NCBI RefSeq assembly: GCF_009914755.1
Contig: NC_060939.1
Origin: the human T2T-CHM13v2.0 reference genome, Homo sapiens
Direction: 5' to 3' (one strand)
DNA: 64,000 bases
Shown here: piece after piece, positions 11,945 through 61,350 of the stretch
Layout of the letters: each line of letters opens with the position of its first letter
Position numbering within the stretch: position 1 is the first letter of the stretch
Position numbers and translations under genes: made by a program
The notes under the pieces: model-generated
What the model was told of the DNA's origin: nothing
The model's database searches: none
The model's input: only the letters and a program-made list of their open reading frames with translations

Positions 11945-12610
11945 CTCTTTCAGTTACAAGTGGCAGGAATAAAATCTAAAGTAGTTATAGGAAAAGAAAG
12001 GAAGGAAGGAAGGAACAAACGAACGAACAAATGAAGGAAGGAAGGAAGGGAGTGGGGAGGGAAAGAGAAAGAAAGAAAAGAGAGAGAAAGAAAGAGAGAG
12101 AGAGAGAAGGAGGGAGGGAGGGAGGAAAGAAGGAAGGGGAGAGAGAAAGAAGGAAAGAAAGAAAGAAAAAGAAGAAAGAAAGAAAGAAAAAGAAAGAAAA
12201 GAGAAAGAAAGAAACAAAGAAAGAAAGAAACAAAGAAAGAAAGAGAATAGAGATTATTTCTATTCGCTTGTAGAAGTAATCTACCTACCTTCAGGATAGC
12301 TGTATCCAGAAACTCAAATGATAGCATTGAAGATGGCCATCTCTCTCTCTCCCACCTCCCTTTATCTCTCCTACTGGCTCTCTACATGTCACAGGCAAGA
12401 TGAGTATTGGAAGCCCTGCCACTTTAGCAAGCCCAGAGCAGAAGGAAGGAAGGCTTCTGACTGGCCTGGCCTCGGGTCATGTGGCCAGGGAGCAGGCAGG
12501 ATCAGCCCCATCCAATCCTGGTGGAAAGAATTCTCTATAGGAAGGAAAGGTTCTACTCTAAGAGGCAACAAGTAAGCACAGCTCAGTGAAGTAAAACCAC
12601 AGAGGTATTT
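11945..12610 (-). mobile_element. MLT1 LTR interrupted by a GA-rich simple repeat
   Basis: 'tttcagttacaagtggcagg' and 'cttcaggatagctgtatccagaaactcaaatgat...tctgactggcctggcctcgggtcatgtg' are antisense MLT1 motifs. Confidence 0.6.
11992..12245. repeat. Compound (GGAA)n/(GAAA)n/(GA)n polypurine repeat
   Basis: ~250 bp almost purely purine on the + strand. Confidence 0.95.
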
Positions 12611-20720: not shown

Positions 20721-22877
20721 TGCTCCCTGATCTCTCACAGTCTACTGGGGAAAACAGGCAGATTAACATCTGGCTATAATACATAATGATAAGCCCTAAT
20801 AGAAACTGTGAACTTAGACGGCATCAAATCCCCTGCATGGGGAACCCTCCTCTCTGCCTACAGGGGAATTCTGAGCAAACATCAAAGGGAGAGGAGTTTT
20901 CTCAATTACTCCTGGGCTCTACCCCACCTTGACCAGACACCCCACCTACGCTAAGTCAGGGCGCCTAAAATTGAACATTTTAGCTTCAAGGCGGGTGGGG
21001 AGAGAAGAGAAGCTTACATTTCAGACACAAAGAGAATAAAGAACAAAAGAAGCAATCGGGTATTTAAATATTTGTATTAATTACCACCTAAAATCAGTTT
21101 CCTAAAAATAAAGGTAAAAATTCTTCCTGACCATCCTCTCCAAGTGTCTCATTCTAAAAGTGAGAGTAAGACTGACTTCCTGTTTTTAAAACTTCAGAAA
21201 GTGGAAAAGGCAGAAGCAAGACGTTGAACAAGACATAGAGCTGCTCAGCACCTTCATTTCCTCCTCCTTAAGGAAGAAGGTGATCATAATCTTCCCAGGC
21301 AGCTCATAAGGCTACTGCTTATTTCAAATAAGACAGCAAACGCCAAGGCCCTTTGAGAAATTCAAGATGCGATGACAAGAGGAATTATTATACCAGACAC
21401 CTTTATGTTCCTTTTGCCTTCTCCGAATCTGTTGCGTCACCCCTCCAAGACTGATTGATATTCCAAAGACACAAAATAACTTAAACAATTCAGAGAGAGG
21501 CAGATCTGGAAGGTGGAAGTCTTCAATATTTCCAGGAGACAATGGGAGCCATGAATAATTCTAGGAGACAAGAAGACCATACAGAAATCCTCCTACTTGG
21601 TTTCAGTGTCCTTGATAACAAATGCCAAGACAGGCTATGAGATCTGGGAGAGTGGAGACCTGTGTTCTCACCTGATTTAAGGTCAGCATCCCTGGAAAGG
21701 ATCACACACCCAGATGAGAGGGGAGCATCCTGCTCTACTGCCTCCCTGCTGCACCATGTTGGGCACGTCACGTCACTGCTCTGAGCCTCAGTTTCTGACC
21801 CCCCTCCCTCCTTCCCACTTTCCCATAGTTGTTGGGAGGGCAAGAGGAGATCAGGGATGTGGAAGCTCTTTGCAAACTATAAAAGGCTTCATACATTTAC
21901 ATTGTTGTCATCACTATCTGCGTGACTTGTGCTTTGGTGGAATAAGTCCATCTGTGCAAGGCAGGCCTTTGAAGGTATTCTAAGCCCTGCAGGCCTCCAG
22001 CGGCCCTCAACGTAAGCCAGTGGTGGAGTATGGTTTTTATCAGGAAGGCTGGCGGGAGACCAGACGCCACATAGCCTGCAGAACCTCAGGATACAGGCCG
22101 GCCCCGCCAGGGCTACTTGACCCCAAACCATCCCAGGGTCCTGCTCTGGCCTTTGCAGTCCCCAGTTTCCATGTGGTACTAGGTCTTGGCGTGGTGTGGA
22201 GAAGGAGGTGTTCTCTTTCTCTCTGTTGCAAAGGAATATTAGGAAATGCATCCGGATTTAGATTCCCAAATGGAACTCCAAGCTGTCCCCTTAATTGATT
22301 TCTTTTGCTTCCCTCAAGTCCTCAAAAACGTGTCGACATCCATTTGGAGTTGCCATCCACCAGGCGCACACTGGCCAACTTTCTTCAATTAATGAGCTGT
22401 GACTGAAATTGAGAGCCTCACTTTCCACAGCCACGGCAGGAGATTGACCCTGCCTTGGCGATTAAACAAAATGTCAGTGCTGTGTCTGTGAAATATAAGT
22501 TATTAAAAACTGGCCACTCCAGCTAGCTCGGGCAGCACATTATCACTGATGACTATTGTCTTGGCTGTGGCTGGACATCCCCCGACACTCACCTCCAAAT
22601 TTGGCCTGTTTGCTGCTTGTGCCTTTGCTCAAGTCAGTCCCCCTGCCCTGCACGCCCTCTCTATAGCTATGTGCTTGTCAAAACACAGCCAGCCTTCAGG
22701 ACCCAGTTATTTGGATTTTTTATTCATTCAGTAAACATGTGTTGAATGTTCACTGTGCACCAGACTCTTGTCATTTATTCATTTCTATAAAAATGTATTA
22801 AATGAACAAGACAAACACCACCTTTATCCTCACAGAGCTCGGAGACTTGGAGGGACACATTTTGAAAGATGACTCTT

Positions 22878-23169
<292 letters not shown>

Positions 23170-23269
23170 TTTACTCTAAGGTGGCACAGTGGATTTAGGG
23201 CAGTGACAGATATGTATGAGTGCTATGGGGTACTGGGAAGGGGCACTGACTTCTGGAGAAAGTGCTATA

Positions 23270-23465
23270 TTTTTTAAACATTTTTGTAATTAAAAATTTC
23301 AAATATTTATTTGGAACTGTTTGACGAACCCCTCAGTGCCCACCACCCAGCTTTAGCATCATCGATCATCTCACAGCCAGCCTTTTATCTCTAATCCTAT
23401 CTGCCTCCCCACACTCTTGTGTTATTTTGAAGCAAATCCCAGACATCATGTTATTGTCTCCATGA
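23270..23465 (-). mobile_element. L1MC/L1ME 3' end fragment
   Basis: 'aaaaatttcaaat...cccaccacccagctt...ttattttgaagcaaatcccagacatcat'. Confidence 0.6.
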
Positions 23466-23554
23466 GTCCACACCCCTTCTAATCTGTACTGCTCAGTGGC
23501 TTTAGGCCAGCTTTATGTCAATAAGGGAGCCACCAAAGTGTCCAAGGAGCACTG

Positions 23555-23775
23555 ACCAGCCTTGGCGTCAGACAAATCTGAGTTCAAATCCTATTTCCCA
23601 CACCTGCAAAGCTGCTGACTGTGCAAACGACTTACCTACTCTGGGCCTTGCATTCCTCATGTACAAAATAGGGATACCATTTCTGAGTTTCTAGAGTTGT
23701 TCTGATAATTAAATGATGTAAAGTATATAAAGTGCCCAGCATGGCACCTGGCCCTGAATTGGTGCTCCATAAATA
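23555..23775 (+). mobile_element. MIR SINE
   Basis: 'gtcagacaaatctgagttcaaatcct...ctcatgtacaaaataggga...aaagtgcccagcatggcacctggc'. Confidence 0.8.
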
Positions 23776-23786
23776 TTCCCTCCCTT

Positions 23787-23984
23787 ACATCACACACCGG
23801 GGCCTGTTGTGGGGTGGGGGGAGGGGGGAGGGATAGCATTAGGAGATACACTTAATGTAAATGACGAGTTAATGGGTGCAGCACACCAACATGGTGCATG
23901 TATACATATGTAACAAACCTGCACGTTGTGCACATGTACCCTAGAACTTGAAGTATAATTAAAAAATAAATTAATTAAAAAAAT
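23787..23984 (+). mobile_element. 5'-truncated L1PA (L1PA4/5-like), 3' UTR only
   Basis: acatcacacaccggggcctgttgtggggtggggggagggggg...taatgtaaatgacgagttaatgggtgcagcacaccaacatgg...A-rich tail; perfect 14-bp TSD atattccctccctt at 23773-23786 and 23985-23998. Confidence 0.95.
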
Positions 23985-24126
23985 ATATTCCCTCCCTTGT
24001 CTTGCTGTGTCCTGGGTCACTGTGAGAGTACCGTGAAGCAGCTGAGTATGTTTGACTGATATTTCACTTCGGACATGCTAAGATGTGACTGGACATTCCC
24101 AGAGGTCAGACTCCTGACCACAGTAT

Positions 24127-24303
24127 AGGCCCAGCCCAGACAGCTATTACAGTAAGACTTCTTTAATGTCAGCCTCTCTCACCTACTCTTTACATAGTGT
24201 GGACTACTCTTTAAGCAGACCACTGGTCCACACTATGTAAAGAGTAGGTGAGAGAGACTGACATTAAAGAAGTCTTACTGTAATAGCTGTCTGGGCTGGG
24301 CCT
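24127..24303. repeat. Long near-perfect inverted repeat (78-bp arms, 21-nt spacer, 1 mismatch)
   Basis: 24127-24204 is the reverse complement of 24226-24303 except C24173 opposite A24257. Confidence 0.97.
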
Positions 24304-25214
24304 GAACCACCGTCACGTGAGTTCACTGCAGAGAGATGTTGCTTAAGTTTTGCAAAGTTCAAGTCGTGACATTGGCCATTCCTTTCACACTTCACAGTGC
24401 TTTGGGAAGAAGGGAGACTCTAGGCAAGGGAGAATGTGTGCACCTAAACTGAGCACTTGCAAGCTTGCTTTTCAAAGGCTCGACCTGCTTCTGGCTGCTG
24501 CGAGCACCAGCCTCCTCTCTACTCTGGGTGGCAGCTGGTGATAAAGCCCCAATAACTCAGACAAATGTGGTTGACGCCAGAGAGGAGTCAAGGGCCTGGC
24601 TGCAACGTCTGGGGCCAGCTTGGTCTTGGACCTCGCTGTATGTTTACAAGTTTCCTTTGACAATTCAGTTTTGAAGATGGGCTTCATTAAAGGGCAATTA
24701 TAGGTTAAGTAACTTGTTGGCTCATTGCCTAATGTGGAAAACTCGACTATGACAATCAGATAATTCTGAGATTAAGCAAGACAGCAATTGCTACTGAAAG
24801 AAGAAGCTTAGCAAGAGGATAAAAGACTCTCCAGCCATGACCTCATCCCAGCTGCCCGTCTGGGCAGGAAGTCTGGATTCAAGGGGCCAGCAGGCTCTGG
24901 GAACCTCTGGCATCGGGGGTGACCTCTTCTGGGAAAGGAGACCACAAAAGGCAAAGTGCTCTCCCATTGAGTGGCAAGATTCCCCTCTTCCTATAGGGCT
25001 TAATTCTCCCAGAGGCCTTCTCCTGGGTGCCAGGAGTGAGCCAAGCTGGTCTGTGCTGTGGCCTCTGTTTGTACCCGGCTGTTTTCCATCAGCCCACCCT
25101 TGCTAATACCTCCACTTTCCCTCTCCTTCCACATCTCTGACCATCCATGAAGCTTCCCTAATGCAGAAGGGGTGAATTACCTCAATATTCCTTGAGAACT
25201 TGGTGTCAGATAGG

Positions 25215-26111
<897 letters not shown>

Positions 26112-27969
26112 TAGATTTTTAGTTCCTGTGGGGCTGTGGTTCTGAAAAAGTGGTTCCCAACAGGCAGCAACAGCATCACCTGGGAATGTGTTAGGAAGTT
26201 TCCGGCCCAATCTGGCTCTCCTTGAGCCCCTGGAGTCCCTCAGGTTGGTGGCCACATGTCCCAGGTCTCCATGCCCCTGCTGCATGGAGGGGTCAGTGCC
26301 ATCCTGACTTAGCCCAGCTGATATTCACAAGGGCAGCATGGGGTGACAGCAAGAGCTGTGGATTAGCAAGGTCAGAACAAGGCTCCCAGACCTGGCCTGG
26401 GCCCTGCAGGACACATTCAACCCTCCTGAGCCTCACTTTCCTCATCTCCGAATGAGAGGCTCGGGAGTAAGGATTCTGGATCCACACTGTATGACACTTG
26501 GGTCTGCGGAGCTCTCTGCTGGACCCTGGGCAAGAGGCTGAGGTGGGTGCACGGAAAGATGGAACGGTGGTTCCTGCCTTCGCTGACCTTATAGTTCAGT
26601 TACATGCGGAACAGTGACACTCGGGTGACTAAAAACCAAGCCAGCTGCTTCTATTTCCAGGTTCAGGAGCAGGACACAAACACATGAGGCCCTATAAGCA
26701 GCAGGATACCACTGTGGGCTTTCTGGAGAGGGTGAGCCTTGAAAAGGGAGTTTGATTAAAAAGTAAAGGGAACACCCTCGAAGGAGGTGGGGAAACTGCT
26801 GAGCAAGGGCATGGAGACGGGGTTTTGTCGTGTGTTTGGAAGTGGGGACAAGACTCCCTGGCTCTCCCTTGCTTAATATGACACAGGCTGTGTCTTCCTC
26901 CCCGCACCTCGTAAAATCTTGCCTCTTCTGCCCCAGACAGCTGTGGACCTGTTTTTTCAGAGTATGTGCTCAGAATTACTTCTAGGTAGGCTCAGAGATT
27001 GGGTGGAGGCGGGGTGAGTGTGATGCTGTGATTAGATTCACCTTCAAGACTGAACCAGCCTCCCCACCGTTCTGATCCAGGCAGCAGCCCCATAACACAA
27101 GAGTTAAGAGGAGTTTGGAACGTGGATCTGGACTGTTGAGAGGAGGTGGAAGATGAGAAGTCCTAGGCCAGTGTAGGGAGGGAGAGAGCAGAGGGCATCT
27201 CTCATCGATTTGCTCATTTGTTCAATCAACAGCCAAACATTCACTGACTGTCTGCTCTGAGTTAAGGCCTATTCTGGCACTAGGACTGCAGAGCCTCCAT
27301 AGTTCTGGATATCTGTTAATGCTGAGCGTTTGGAGAGTTTGTCTAAACCCCCCATTTTACAGATGGGAAAACTGAGGCTCAAACCCAAGGCACACAAGAG
27401 GTCAGTGGCCTGGCCAAGATAGGCCAGGCCCAGGTATGTTCCCGCCAGCAAAAAGGGAATGACTCCAAGAGGCTGGAGCCTGTATGGACCCAAGCGTCAC
27501 CTGGCAGGAGAGGGAGAGTAAGCACAGATGCAGCCTCAGGGCCTGAGAGGGGTTGAAGTGTCCAGACGCAGATTCCCAAGAGTGGAACAATTAGCAACAG
27601 ACGAAATTCAGACAACTGGCCCCAGGGCAAGTTCAACAAACAGCCACCACAGGGCAGAGGTTTCTGGGAGTCTGGCCCCAAGCAGGATGGGGGCAAAGAG
27701 ACCAGGTACTGTGATTAAGTGCTGGAGGGGTTGGGGTTGTAGCCCCGGAGAAACTGATGTGCCTGGTCCTATGTGACAAAGGCAGGCCTGCAGGGTCCCA
27801 GAGTGAGGAGCCAGCCCCTCTGCAGCCCCTTTTGCCAGAGGCCACCGCTGATGCAGGGCTGAGCCTAGGAAAGGGCCCAGCACTAGAGCTGGGATGGAGC
27901 AAACCTGTGGCAGATCTGCTGGTGGCCCACAGCTGCAGAGCTGGAGGGCCTCAGCCAATAACAACATCA

Positions 27970-29890: not shown

Positions 29891-30586
29891 GATCTGGTCA
29901 TTCCAAAAGACATTGATCATATGCCAAGATCTGTGCCAAGTGCAAGGAACCTCACAGCCTTGCCATCATGAGATGGGAGAGCCAGGGCATGCATGTCAAA
30001 ATAGCCAGCCCCGCCATGCAGCCAGGCCACGAGCCAGAGGAGAGGGACAGACCAGGGCCCGAGGTGTTGTGGCAAGTTGGGGAAGGGATGAAGCCAGTAT
30101 CTGGCTTTCTCAGGGGCTGGGTCTTGGGCACTGTTTTGGTTCTAAGCAAGTCCTGTAGTGTAATGGAGGGAGGATGGCTTTGGATCAGATGATGGTTTGT
30201 CTTCCCTTAAGGAAGCTCACTGCTCTGAGCCTTGTTTCTCACTTGGTTATGGAAGCAGAGGTAAGTGACAGGAAGCATCCAGCACAAAGCCTGACACGGT
30301 GGATGCACCATGAGGATGGGTCCCCTAAATTGTAGGATGGAGGGCAGACCAGAAAGCCTTCCAGCCAGGGTCAGCCTCTGAGACCTTTAAGGTCCTTTGA
30401 GCAGGGCAGAGGGGTCTGTGTACTACTGTTGATGGTTGCCCAGATGCCAGCATCTTGCTTGACCAGGTCCTGATGCGTGTTCCCTTACAAAAGCAATTCC
30501 CCGAGTTAGTCCTATCAGATACTCAATGAGGAAAGGGGTTCATGGTCAGTTGAGTTAAGGAAACACCCAGTTAAAAAGGTTTCTTT

Positions 30587-30866
30587 GCCAGGCGTGGTGG
30601 CTCATGCCTATAATCCCAGCACTTCGGGAGGCTGAGGCAGGTGGACCACAGGGTCAGGAGTTCAAGACCAGCCTGGCCAACATGGTGAAACCCCATCTCT
30701 ATTAAAAATACAAAAATTAGCCGGGCAGGGTGGCGGGCGCCTGTAGTCCCAGCTACTCAGGAGGCTGAGGCAGGGAATTGCTTGAAACCAGGAGGAGGAG
30801 GTTGCAGCGAGCGGAGATCACGCCATTGCACTCCAGCCCGGGCAACAGAGTGAGACTCTGTCTCAA

Positions 30867-30887
<21 letters not shown>
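30587..30887 (+). mobile_element. Alu SINE (AluSg-like)
   Basis: Full dimer with 23-nt poly(A); TSD aaaaaggtttcttt / aaaaagatttcttt. Confidence 0.96.
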
Positions 30888-30897
<10 letters not shown>

Positions 30898-31004
30898 CTG
30901 CAGGGCTTTTCTGAGCATCTAAACACTAATATGCCCATATCACAAAGTGCAAATGCTTCCATACATGAAGAGACCCTACAATCAATAACAAGACCAGCAA
31001 TCTA

Positions 31005-32535
<1,531 letters not shown>

Positions 32536-58300: not shown

Positions 58301-61111
58301 GCAATGAGAACACATGGACACAGGGCAGGGAACATCACACACTGGGGCCTATCGGTTGGTGGGGAGAGCTGGGGGAGGTGTAGTATTAGGAGAAATACCT
58401 AATGTAAATGTCAAGTTGATGCGTGCAGCAAACCAACATGGCACATGTATACCTATGGAACAATCCTGCACGTTGTGCGCATGCACCCTAGTACTTAAAG
58501 CATAATTTTAAAAAAGCAAAAGAAGAAAGGAGACCCTATCTAGTCATATGCTGTCCGCCAATTAGAGTCAGTCCCACCGACCACTGATTTCTTACGTGCT
58601 CTTCTTTCTGTTCAGAACCCATCTGCAGAGCCTCTGGAGCCTTGAAGGCAGTGGCCGGCAGTTCCCACCACAGCCCTCTCTCCTGTCTCCTCCCGGATTC
58701 TCTTTGCTTTTAACATTTCTGTTCCCTCTCCGAATTCCCTGCTCTGTTATCTGCCCCCCACCTCTCCATCCCCTCCACCACCTTGAGGTCTCTCCCCAGA
58801 ACTTTCTCTCTCTTAGCAGTGGAAGCTGAGCACAGGGGAACCCTGGTCTGCAGGAGCTGAACTGGCCTTGGCACCCACACCTGCCTGGGGACAGCCAGGA
58901 GGAGCTCCACCCACTGCTAGCCAAGCTGTCCCTCACGACCATCATGGGGCAAGGGCTGGCCACCTATGGAGTCAGCCAAGTGGGTTTCTTGTGCCTCTAG
59001 GAACATCCAGTAAAATCTCTTGGTTCCCAAATTAAAGCAGCCACCATTTCGTGAGTGCTTCCTATGGGCCAGGCTCTGGGCTCAGCCCCTAGAAGCATTA
59101 CCTATTTTAATGCTCCAACAACAGCAGGCACAGTTATTGTAACTTAATTCCCCGGAGAGCACACAGAGCATGAGGGGACTTCTCAAGGTCCCAGAATAGG
59201 AGAAAGGCAAGGCCAGGCTTAGACCCCCCGACATGCCTGCTGTTGGCCCCTGTCTCTGCTGCCTCCCCCATACTCTGTCCCTAGACTTTCCTCCATGAAA
59301 ACTGCTTTTCAATTTAATTTTTGTTTAACTTTTATTTTATTGGGCAACACTTTATCCTATAAAATAGACTGAGTGTTCCCTACACGAGAACTGCTTTTGT
59401 CCTCGAGTGGAGTCCAATGAAACCCACTGAATTTGTCACTGATAACAGCTGAAGGTGTGCCCTTCCCAGGGCCGTTCGCGTGTCCTATACTATATTCTTC
59501 TAGGCCCAGACAATACATCTGTGATGGCAGAATTTCAAACAGACAGGGAGTGGAGCAGATCACTTTGATTTGGGAATGGGGCAGCCCAGAGGTCCCGCAA
59601 CACCCCCTCCAGGAGGCTGCCTCCTCTGCTGTCTCATAAAGCTGCCCCATCCGCCCGCCACAGTGAAGCAATCAGACCCTCTGTTCCCTTGTTCACTGCT
59701 CACCTAGCTTGGCTCCGAGACCAGTGTTGTAGACCTATTAATTATCAGGATAATTACGGACGGGGAAATCCAGACACAGATACAATCAGTGCCCTCCTCC
59801 ACCTCCCCGCACACGCCCCTCCCGGTCTCCCTGACATCCTGGTGTGCACTGTGTTCCCCTGCCATCTCCACGCTGCGGCTCCTACTAGACCCACCCCTGC
59901 CGGTGCCAAAATGCCCAAAGGAAGGCTGAGTCATGCTCTGGCCTGCCCAGCCGCAATAGTCATGCTGCAACTCCCATGGAAAACCTCCTTTCACCCACTC
60001 CAGAGGTCTGAGACACCCTAATGGGCCAAGTCCTTTCCCCTCACCCATAGAGCTCAAACTGCCTCTCACCTTGCCCCCTTCCAACTCAGGCTGTAGAAAA
60101 CACTGGATAAAGTAAGGCTTACTAACCAAGCATCCCTGCACCTAAAAATGGACCGCTTAATTTCAGGACCCCCTGAAATTGTCAGCAAAAGTTTCTCTGT
60201 GCACATCTGTACATTTAGCTGGGAAGACTCCACAGCTTATATCAGATCGTCACAGAGTCCCAAGCCCCAATGGGGTAAGAATCTCTGAATCTAACATGTC
60301 ACAGAGACCACCCCCTATAACACTTTACCAAGAACTTAATCCTCCATGAGCTCGCCTAATGCCTGCTCCTCTGTGGACAGGCAAGCCATCACTTGGGTTG
60401 GGAGCACCAGCCTGCAGCCAGACTACCTGGGTTTTTCATCCCAATACTGCCACTTTCTAGCTATGTCACCTCGGTTTCCCTGTCAGAAAAAAATGAGACC
60501 ACATGGCATCTTGGTTTCCTCCTTGGATCACTACAGGGAGTGGCAGCAGCCTGGCTGCTCCAATTGGAACTTAAAAATCACTAGGGATCATGCAGGTCAT
60601 AAACAAAAGGAAGAAGCACTACTATGGACTCAGGCTGCAGTTACAGTCAACAACCCTCCCTCCACCAAGATCAGCACAGAGAGTCTCTCCCCAACATCCT
60701 CATATCACAGCACGCTCCAGGACTGGGGAATCCCTGAGGATGGCTCAGGGCAGCCCAGCCTCCTTTCTGAAAACAGGATTCAGAGCTCATAGAAGCCTCC
60801 CTGCCCTGGGAGTCTCAAGAGAGCACTTAAGCACAGACACCTGGTTTAGCTTGGTAGGCACCCCTAGCCTGCGGAGCTTACCCCCGCCGCACACATCTGG
60901 AGAGTCAACCATTACAAAGAGAAATAGCAGGACTGGTCCTGCCCCTCCGGGATGGTGCCGCCAGTCTAGAGTAAAATGCCAAGCACGGGCTCAAGACTCC
61001 TGCCGAGGCCAATGGTAAGCCAGGCTGCTTCAGGAAGGGAGGGAGGAGAAGGGAGGGAAGAAGAGAGGGAAGAGGAAGGAGGGAGAAAGGGATGGAAGAG
61101 GGAAGAGAATC

Positions 61112-61256
61112 AGAGAGGGAGGGGAGGAGGAAGAGAGAGAAGGCGGGAGGAAGGAAGAGAGGGAGGGGAGGAGGAAGAGAGAGAAGGCGGGAGGAAGGAA
61201 GAGAGGGAGGGGAGGAGGAAGAGAGAGAAGGCGGGAGGAAGGAAGAGAGGGAGGGG
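61112..61256. repeat. 44-bp purine-rich minisatellite, ~3.3 identical copies, within a GA-rich tract (61035-61291)
   Basis: Unit agagagggaggggaggaggaagagagagaaggcgggaggaagga; its single C recurs at 61144, 61188 and 61232. Confidence 0.92.
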
Positions 61257-61350
61257 GAGGTAGAAGGGAGGAGAGGGAGGGAAGGAAGGAGGCTCTTCAA
61301 GCCTCTCCAAGCCTCTCCATCCCTCCCTCTTCAAGGCAAAATATACTTTC

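What the first reader, a model, noticed from the sequence alone, without database searches (positions are those of the whole stretch)
24127..24303. Unexplained 78-bp-arm near-perfect inverted repeat: candidate hairpin-RNA (young miRNA/endo-siRNA) locus or cruciform
Seen: 24127-24204 (aggcccagcccagacagctattacagtaagac...catagtgtggac) is the reverse complement of 24226-24303 with one mismatch (C24173/A24257) around a 21-nt spacer. On a minus-strand transcript that mismatch becomes a G-U wobble, so the whole 78-bp stem would pair. The arms are complex sequence resembling no Alu, L1, MIR or MITE I recognise, and I see no TSD. Established: long short-spacer inverted repeats are rare and unstable in mammalian DNA, can extrude cruciforms, and when transcribed are substrates for Drosha/Dicer, ADAR and PKR. 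Inverted duplication is a known route to new miRNA genes. Inference: a recent or actively homogenised fold-back duplication that may be a lineage-specific small-RNA gene.
Basis: partly seen in the sequence, partly recalled or inferred. Interest (0 to 1): 0.85.

Follow-up and report, generated by a model that had tools for sequence, protein, structure and literature searches.

The report
Single-copy template-switch-type inverted duplication
A 177-base stretch of gene-free human chromosome 15 is an almost perfect fold-back copy of itself, most likely a by-product of DNA copying that briefly switched strands, and nothing found so far shows that it is a gene.

Summary
Bases 24127-24204 and 24226-24303 are reverse complements with 1 mismatch in 78, around a 21-nt spacer. 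As RNA it folds at -154 kcal/mol on the + strand and -162 on the - strand, with z about -24.

The arm and both flanks occur only at this locus in the T2T genome. The same search returns 157 to 2294 candidates for three known repeats, down to 71% identity. No target-site duplication or gapped extension of the repeat is significant. A dispersed palindromic transposon is therefore rejected.

All Rfam miRNA matches are below threshold and driven by structure alone. The stem is more than twice the roughly 35 bp that miRNA processing prefers. No gene is annotated here, and the arms have no other genomic match that could be a target.

Best reading: a neutral inverted duplication made, and perhaps re-homogenised, by short-range template switching. 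One mismatch gives an age of about 6-13 My, with a 95% interval of 0.2-71 My.

There is one unconfirmed lead. A published great-ape template-switch event, a cluster of 20-21 nt with human as the ancestral state, maps about 350 bp from the spacer by my approximate liftover. The small-RNA-gene idea is unsupported. Interest is low to moderate.

The parts
24127..24204 (.). Left arm of the inverted repeat (78 nt, GC 46%, no CpG)
   Evidence: its only genomic matches are itself and the right arm
24205..24225 (.). 21-nt spacer (the loop). It differs from its own reverse complement at 15 of 21 positions, including both ends, so an inversion would appear as a 21-nt mutation cluster.
24226..24303 (.). 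Right arm, the reverse complement of the left arm at 77/78 positions
   Evidence: (99% on the minus strand)
24173..24173 (.). The single mismatch: C here against A at 24257. It is C:A in a plus-strand RNA and G:U in a minus-strand RNA.
24183..24213 (+). 10-nt direct repeat CTACTCTTTA at 24183-24192 and 24204-24213. The offset is 21, equal to the spacer length. The second copy straddles the arm/spacer junction and could pair with 24238-24247 in a shifted register. It may be a footprint of a switch point; this is unexplained.
   Evidence: 9/5000 shuffles reach a 10-nt run, but 44/646 real 99-nt tiles of the window do

Best explanation
This is a single-locus local inverted duplication. One arm is a reverse-complement copy of the other, made in one step when a DNA polymerase briefly switched template at a replication fork. 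In the four-point template-switch model this is type 1-4-3-2 / 3-2-1-4, which creates one inverted repeat around a spacer. Later switches within the repeat may have flipped the spacer or re-homogenised the arms. It lies in intergenic, non-repetitive DNA and is most likely selectively neutral. Its consequences would be structural only: it could form a hairpin on single-stranded DNA during replication, and an 81-bp-class RNA hairpin if it happened to be transcribed. Shown: the structure, its uniqueness, the lack of a gapped extension into the flanks, and its low divergence. Inferred: the mechanism, the neutrality, and an age older than the human-chimpanzee split.
For: (1) The arms are 77/78 complementary. 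Gapped local alignment of the flanks, inverted or direct, is no better than shuffles.

(2) The arm and both flanks are unique in the 3.1-Gb assembly (one first-look candidate each, the locus itself). The same tool returns 2294, 157 and 270 candidates for three masked repeats, with hits down to 71-72% identity.

(3) Nearly every pair is Watson-Crick at the DNA level, with a single transition. This points to a DNA-level copying process rather than long selection on an RNA fold, which would tolerate G:U pairs and bulges (inference).

(4) The size is within the published range. The longest template-switch fragment in complex human sequence was 90 bp (PMC9435742 passages). The maximum 2->3 fragment in great apes was 128 nt (PMC7954356 passages). 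A loop-inverting event of up to 83 bases is described at hsa-mir-4713 (PMC10710096 Results). Type 1-4-3-2/3-2-1-4 makes a single inverted repeat (PMC5453318 passages).

(5) One mismatch gives 6.4-12.8 My at 1e-9 to 0.5e-9 per site per year, with a 95% interval of 0.16-71 My.

(6) Lead, not proof. Event 1182 of Walker et al. 2021 is at GRCh38 chr15:70339631-70339651 and spans 20-21 nt. It is labelled 'partially_significant' with human 'ancestral', and is listed only under 'Intergenic'. It is the only listed event inside the window's estimated GRCh38 span and lies 348 bp from the estimated position of the 21-nt spacer. The chance that any of the 4017 events falls that close to a given site is about 9e-4. 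A second catalogue reports 59 human-chimp microinversions of 17-33 nt, all flanked by inverted repeats of 3-75 nt per flank, only two of them over 50 bp (PMC8755829 passages).
Against: No outgroup sequence could be examined. The ancestral state, which arm is the copy, and what it replaced are all unknown, so the defining test of a template-switch event was not run.

The liftover behind lead (6) rests on my recalled GRCh38 coordinate of MIR629, anchored to its T2T position. That coordinate was not confirmed in any paper. The estimate misses event 1182 by 348 bp. With no net indel, the event would fall in the L1 fragment at 23857-23877, which the authors' repeat filter should exclude. The event's alignments (S1 Data) were too large to read. 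A pure spacer inversion should be 'reversible', and might be expected to be filed as 'ambiguous_placement' rather than 'partially_significant'.

Microhomology at the inferred switch points is minimal (read).

In-register complementarity of the 60 nt outside the arms is 24/60 against a window mean of 15.0. Only 232 of 20000 random places reach that. This is a weak, post hoc hint that the boundaries are not wholly sharp.

The product cannot tell replication switching apart from break-repair fold-back synthesis.
Confidence: 0.6

Rival explanations
1. The product is the same, but it was made during double-strand-break repair rather than at a replication fork. A resected 3' tail snaps back on a few bases of inverted microhomology and copies itself. 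It is then joined to the other end by fold-back templated insertion, polymerase-theta-type end joining, or microhomology-mediated break-induced replication.
For: Fold-back templated inverted duplications at breaks are documented (PMC11724301, abstract start only). The microinversion paper argues for a break-repair model at inverted repeats (PMC8755829 passages). The arms have little junction microhomology, and end joining tolerates that (read).
Against: The reported break-induced inverted insertions are mostly about 5-34 bp (listing), well short of 78 bp. No deletion scar or filler can be assessed without an ancestral sequence. Nothing here separates the two mechanisms.
Confidence: 0.2
2. The near-perfect 78-bp repeat is the re-homogenised core of an older, longer palindrome. 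That palindrome could be an ancient palindromic DNA transposon or an old template-switch product, with outer parts that have since decayed.
For: In-register complementarity outside the arms is 24/60 and 35/100, against window means of 15.0 and 25.1 (232 and 493 of 20000 random places reach these). Template switching is known to convert imperfect repeats into perfect ones (PMC5453318 and PMC8794818 passages).
Against: Gapped alignment of the flanks is not above shuffles. No other genomic copy was found at a sensitivity that recovers repeats of 71-84% identity. No TSD was found. Forty per cent identity held in register without indels is implausible for old neutral DNA. The excess is post hoc, over several lengths tried.
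Confidence: 0.07
3. It is a functional hairpin-RNA locus, either a young miRNA or an endo-siRNA (hpRNA) gene. A transcript through it, best from the minus strand, folds into the long stem and is cut by Drosha and/or Dicer into ~22-nt RNAs.
For: The hairpin is very stable on both strands. Template-switch hairpins are a documented source of new miRNAs (PMC10710096). Sub-threshold hits to several miRNA models exist.
Against: All 11 Rfam hits in 24090-24340 are below the gathering score. The best is mir-5444 at 44.5 bits against 90. The hits fall on both strands and in unrelated families, and the alignments show pairing without sequence identity. The stem is 78 bp or more, against the ~35 bp preferred (text). 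Only 57 of 6054 (0.9%) suitable template-switch hairpins in genes are miRBase loci, and 99 of 111 template-switch miRNAs are intragenic, whereas this site is intergenic with no annotated gene (hub annotation). The arms have no other genomic match, so no trans target with extended complementarity exists. A search of paper texts for a 15-nt stretch of the arm found nothing. Expression was not testable.
Confidence: 0.05
4. It is an assembly or sequencing artefact of this one assembly.
For: Only one assembly could be examined here.
Against: Artefactual palindromes from long-read libraries are typically read-scale, not 78 bp (recalled, not tested). The two arms differ at one base, which a pure fold-back read error would not produce. 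If the literature lead is this locus, it is also present in GRCh38 and in ape alignments.
Confidence: 0.02

Closest known systems
Short-range template-switch mutations (four-point model; Loytynoja & Goldman 2017, Walker et al. 2021, Loytynoja 2022)
   Same: A reverse-complement copy of adjacent unique sequence lies within about 100 nt, forming one inverted repeat around a spacer with unrelated flanks. The size is inside the reported range of up to 90-128 nt.
   Different: At 78 nt the copy is far above the median 2->3 length of 12 nt. The event itself, meaning the ancestral against the derived state, was not observed here.
Template-switch-born miRNA hairpins such as hsa-mir-4713 and MIR633 (Monttinen et al. 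2022, 2023)
   Same: A perfect stem is created in one step. Later loop inversion occurs at the same hairpin, which may parallel the published event near this spacer.
   Different: Those stems are miRNA-sized (a 28-nt switch at mir-4713), mostly intronic and expressed. This stem is more than twice as long, intergenic, and has no expression evidence and no Rfam membership.
Human-chimpanzee microinversions flanked by inverted repeats (PMC8755829)
   Same: Inverting segments of 17-33 nt are flanked by inverted repeats of up to 75 nt per flank. This locus has a 21-nt spacer between 78-nt arms.
   Different: Whether this locus is one of the 59 is unknown.
Palindromic MITEs that seed miRNA families (for example MADE1 with mir-548; recalled, not from a call)
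   Same: Short hairpin-forming inverted repeat.
   Different: Those are dispersed in many copies with TSDs. This one is single-copy without a TSD.
Long hairpin endo-siRNA loci (fly hpRNAs, mouse oocyte hairpin siRNA loci; recalled, not from a call)
   Same: Long near-perfect stem that Dicer could in principle process.
   Different: Those arise by inverted duplication of a target gene or pseudogene and silence it in trans. These arms match nothing else in the genome.

Membership tests
Template-switch-generated inverted repeat (four-point model type 1-4-3-2 / 3-2-1-4) | A fragment is the reverse complement of sequence lying within short range on the same molecule | tested here: met
   77/78 complementarity, 21-nt spacer
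Template-switch-generated inverted repeat (four-point model type 1-4-3-2 / 3-2-1-4) | Donor is complex, non-repetitive sequence containing all four bases | tested here: met
   GC 45-46% with all four bases. Unique in the genome, with repeat controls positive.
Template-switch-generated inverted repeat (four-point model type 1-4-3-2 / 3-2-1-4) | An ancestral or outgroup sequence lacks the copy, and the difference is explained better by one switch than by a linear alignment | not testable with these tools
   No primate genomes are held. The alignments of the published event 1182 (S1 Data) were too large to read.
Palindromic MITE / non-autonomous DNA transposon | Many dispersed copies in the genome | tested here: not met
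   One first-look candidate, the locus itself, for the arm and for the 231-nt element at E<=10. Controls find 157-2294 candidates at 71-97% identity.
Palindromic MITE / non-autonomous DNA transposon | Target-site duplication directly flanking the terminal inverted repeats | tested here: not met
   Direct similarity of the flanks is not above shuffles.
Canonical miRNA gene | Stem of about 35 bp with an apical loop of 10 nt or more | tested here: not met
   The stem is 78 bp plus extra pairs in the loop. The 35-bp preference is quoted from PMC10710096.
Canonical miRNA gene | Membership of a described miRNA family | tested here: not met
   0 of 11 Rfam matches in 24090-24340 reach the gathering score; the best is 44.5 bits against 90.
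Canonical miRNA gene | Transcription, and ~22-nt reads with Drosha/Dicer ends | not testable with these tools
   No expression data are held. No gene is annotated in the window (hub annotation).
hpRNA / endo-siRNA locus | A trans target with extended complementarity to the arms | tested here: not met
   The arm matches only its own two copies genome-wide.
Cruciform motif / recombinogenic palindrome as catalogued (spacer up to about 8 nt in invertiaDB) | Very short or absent spacer | tested here: not met
   The spacer is 21 nt. The invertiaDB definition is a spacer up to 8 bp with no arm mismatches. A review states that a longer spacer lowers the risk.

The most novel reading that the evidence does not exclude
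The repeat is a hominid-shared quasipalindrome that keeps being rewritten by template switching, with its spacer flipping between lineages or even among people. In some tissue, for instance the germline, it is transcribed and diced into small RNAs. That would make it a living intermediate in the birth of a hairpin-RNA gene from intergenic DNA.
Probability: 0.05. Interest if true: 0.6.

Novelty: new member of a known kind. Interest (0 to 1): 0.3.

Why it matters
It is a clean, unusually long example of the raw material that template switching supplies: 78-nt arms against a median copied fragment of 12 nt in great apes. A perfect hairpin has appeared in unique intergenic DNA. Such sites may be places of replication stalling and recurrent complex mutation. 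They can confuse read mapping and variant calling. Rarely (0.9% of suitable hairpins in genes) they become miRNA genes. If the literature lead is right, the site also documents repeated switching at one hairpin in apes. On present evidence it is not a gene, and it is an ordinary member of a described mutation class.

Tried and rejected
(1) Rfam at permissive E-value over 22000-26500 and over 24090-24340 gave only sub-threshold, structure-driven miRNA hits on both strands. Membership of a known RNA family is rejected.

(2) MITE reading: rejected by genome-wide uniqueness with positive controls and the lack of a TSD.

(3) A longer decayed repeat: gapped alignment was negative. Ungapped in-register matches are weakly elevated. 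This is kept as a low-probability rival.

(4) Soft-masking information: the window file is all upper case, so none is available.

(5) A full-text search of papers for a 15-nt stretch of the arm found 0 papers.

(7) A phrase search 'chr15 70x' in the Walker supplements gave 0 files. This probably reflects how the tab-separated columns are matched, so it is not evidence. I then read parts 6, 8 and 9 of 28 of the table directly and searched by number.

(8) I tried to confirm my recalled MIR629 coordinates in papers. The one paper returned was irrelevant.

(9) Supplements of PMC9435742 are PDFs and unreadable here. S1 Data of PMC7954356 is too large. Any of these may name this locus.

(10) I tried to explain the 10-nt direct repeat with one- and two-step switch models. 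No single-event model fitted, so it is left unexplained.

Full report
**The observation.** The arms are 24127-24204 and 24226-24303, 78 nt each and 99% complementary, with 21 nt between them. A base-by-base comparison finds one difference, C24173 against A24257, which is a transition. The arms are 45-46% GC, contain all four bases and have no CpG.

Folded as RNA, the plus strand gives -154.3 kcal/mol (z -24.4) and the minus strand -161.9 kcal/mol (z -23.8). None of 200 shuffles matches either value. As DNA the plus strand folds at -95.1 kcal/mol, z -22.9. An independent-base expectation for such a repeat in 3.1 Gb is about 8e-34.

Across the whole window, 11 inverted pairs within 300 nt were listed. 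Only one other has long arms: an inverted Alu pair of 229-nt arms at 84%.

**Copy number.** The held genome is the 3.1-Gb T2T assembly that the window comes from. Searching it with one arm returns only the two arms themselves, at 100% and 99%, from one first-look candidate. The left flank 23999-24126, the right flank 24304-24700 and the whole element with short flanks (24100-24330) each return only their own locus, even at E<=10.

The tool warns that its first look is selective, so I ran three controls on stretches that NCBI masks as repeats. The 198-nt insert at 23787-23984 gave 2294 candidates, of which 40 were scored at 92-97% identity. Stretches 12027-12253 and 61029-61295 gave 157 and 270 candidates, with hits down to 72% and 71% identity. 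The search therefore does see old dispersed families, and the repeat is not one of them.

**Boundaries.** Gapped local alignment of the left flank against the right flank was compared with 300 shuffles at flank sizes of 60, 150, 300 and 600 nt, in both inverted and direct orientation. No comparison stands out. The best is the direct orientation, where 34/300 and 39/300 shuffles score as high. There is therefore no target-site duplication and no gapped extension of the repeat.

One result cuts the other way. Counted in register without gaps, the 60 nt outside the arms are complementary at 24 positions, against a window-wide mean of 15.0. Only 232 of 20000 random places reach this. For 100 nt the count is 35 against 25.1, reached by 493 of 20000. 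This is weak and post hoc, and I cannot explain it.

**Internal detail.** A 10-nt direct repeat occurs at 24183-24192 and 24204-24213. The second copy begins on the last base of the left arm and fills the first nine bases of the spacer. The offset of 21 equals the spacer length. Only 9 of 5000 shuffles of arm plus spacer contain so long a run, but 44 of 646 real 99-nt tiles of the window do. It allows an alternative, shifted pairing with 24238-24247. It may mark a switch point or a second event. I tried one- and two-step models and none is compelling.

**Known RNA families.** Permissive Rfam scans gave several miRNA-model hits centred on the hairpin, on both strands and from unrelated families. 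All are far below their gathering scores. The best is mir-5444 at 44.5 bits against 90, followed by mir-3618 at 37.7 against 99 and mir-609 at 34.5 against 98. The printed alignments show compensated pairs and almost no sequence identity. This is what any perfect hairpin would score.

**Age.** One difference in 78 aligned positions gives 6.4 My at 1e-9 per site per year and 12.8 My at 0.5e-9. The Poisson 95% range is 0.16-71 My. If the arms had diverged freely for 37 My, the chance of seeing at most one difference is 0.02-0.22. For 80 My it is 0.0001-0.014. Homogenisation would reset this clock, so these figures are minimum-information estimates.

**What the literature offers.** Template-switch mutations copy a nearby fragment in reverse complement. 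Type 1-4-3-2 and its mirror 3-2-1-4 create a single inverted repeat (PMC5453318, passages).

- In human variation data the longest event in complex sequence was 90 bp (PMC9435742, passages).
- In great apes the median copied fragment was 12 nt and the maximum 128 nt (PMC7954356, passages).
- Such events created at least 18 human miRNA genes. However, only 57 of 6054 suitable hairpins in genic regions are miRBase loci, and 99 of 111 template-switch miRNAs are intragenic.
- Pri-miRNAs strongly prefer a 35-bp stem (PMC10710096; abstract and introduction, whole Results).
- Switching can also invert loops and restore perfect pairing in existing hairpins (PMC8794818, passages).
- A review notes that longer arms, higher identity and shorter spacers raise the risk of breakage. 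It also cites about 180,000 spacer-less palindromes over 40 bp in the human genome (PMC7999016, passages).
- Break-induced fold-back insertions are mostly 5-34 bp (PMC11724301, listing only).

**A lead to a published event.** S2 Data of Walker et al. lists the 4017 events in GRCh38 coordinates. I read parts 1, 6, 8 and 9 of 28. The chr15 rows I saw are ids 1107-1243.

To place the window on GRCh38 I first located mir-629 in the T2T genome at chr15:67,901,605-67,901,687 (Rfam RF03558, 108 bits). I compared that with its miRBase GRCh38 position, which I recall from memory and could not confirm in any paper. This gives an offset of about 2,177,774. The first TLE3 coding exon at T2T 67,918,385-459 is consistent with my recalled GRCh38 position of the TLE3 5' end.

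With that offset the window spans roughly 70,315,775-70,379,774 and the spacer falls at about 70,339,979-999. Exactly one listed event lies in that span: number 1182, at 70,339,631-70,339,651, which is 348 bp away. It is labelled 'partially_significant' with human 'ancestral' and an unresolved type. In S3 Data it appears once, within the 'Intergenic' sheet, and not under lncRNAs, promoters, TF sites or enhancers.

Its span of 20-21 nt equals the spacer. Inverting the spacer would change 15 of 21 positions, including both ends. With no net indel the event would sit inside the masked 198-nt insert at 23857-23877, which the authors' repeat filter should have removed. A few hundred bases of net indel over the 260 kb between anchor and locus is ordinary.

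Separately, a catalogue of 59 human-chimpanzee microinversions of 17-33 nt reports flanking inverted repeats of 3-75 nt per flank, only two of them above 50 bp (PMC8755829, passages).

I put the chance that event 1182 is this spacer at about 0.6. If it is, both arms predate the human-chimpanzee split, the site is present in GRCh38 and in ape assemblies, and it has switched more than once. Against this, a pure inversion should be detectable in both directions and might have been filed as 'ambiguous_placement'.

**Interpretation.** The best-supported reading is a neutral, single-locus inverted duplication produced by short-range template switching and possibly re-homogenised by later switches (confidence 0.6). 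Break-repair fold-back synthesis gives the same product and cannot be separated from it here (0.2). A re-homogenised core of an older palindrome is kept at 0.07 because of the weak flank signal. An assembly artefact gets 0.02.

A functional hairpin-RNA gene gets 0.05. The stem is more than twice the size that miRNA processing prefers. The site is intergenic with no annotated gene, and the nearest annotated lncRNAs lie about 16 kb upstream and 48 kb downstream by the hub's table. No known family matches. The arms have no second genomic match that could serve as an siRNA target. Transcription and small-RNA reads were not testable with these tools, so this is absence of support, not disproof.

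**Verdict.** The structural interpretation is supported as the most likely one, and the small-RNA-gene interpretation is unsupported. It is a new, or possibly already catalogued, member of a known mutation class. Interest is 0.3.

Noticed in passing
window 23773-23998: A 198-nt insert (23787-23984) ends in an A-rich tail and is flanked by a perfect 14-nt direct repeat at 23773-23786 and 23985-23998. It has at least 2294 related places in the genome at 92-97% identity. By recall it looks like the 3' end of an L1 element, a 5'-truncated retrotransposition with its target-site duplication. It lies 143 nt upstream of the inverted repeat.
   Followed up: partly
window 30652-31233 (masked 30582-30898 and 30996-31326): Two repeat elements in inverted orientation, with 229-nt arms at 84% complementarity and 124 nt between them. 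They are probably an inverted Alu pair, the usual kind of long double-stranded RNA and editing substrate if transcribed.
   Followed up: no
window 24067-24126 and 24304-24363: The 60 nt outside each arm are complementary in register at 24 of 60 positions, against a window mean of 15.0. Only 232 of 20000 random places reach this. Gapped alignment shows nothing. The effect is weak and unexplained.
   Followed up: partly
window 24218-24228: A small palindrome straddles the spacer/right-arm junction, with five bases on each side of a central C. Its axis is off-centre relative to the main repeat. Seen by eye; its significance was not tested.
   Followed up: no
L003 5605-5687 (T2T chr15:67,901,605-67,901,687): The mir-629 locus in the TLE3 region scores above the Rfam threshold on both strands, 108 bits on the minus strand and 72.3 on the plus. 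This illustrates how symmetric hairpins match miRNA models in either orientation.
   Followed up: no
window 12027-12253 and 61029-61295: Both masked stretches belong to old dispersed families with hits at 71-84% identity. Several hits overlap one another at offsets of about 100-250 nt in the same places, which suggests internally repetitive elements. The families were not identified.
   Followed up: no
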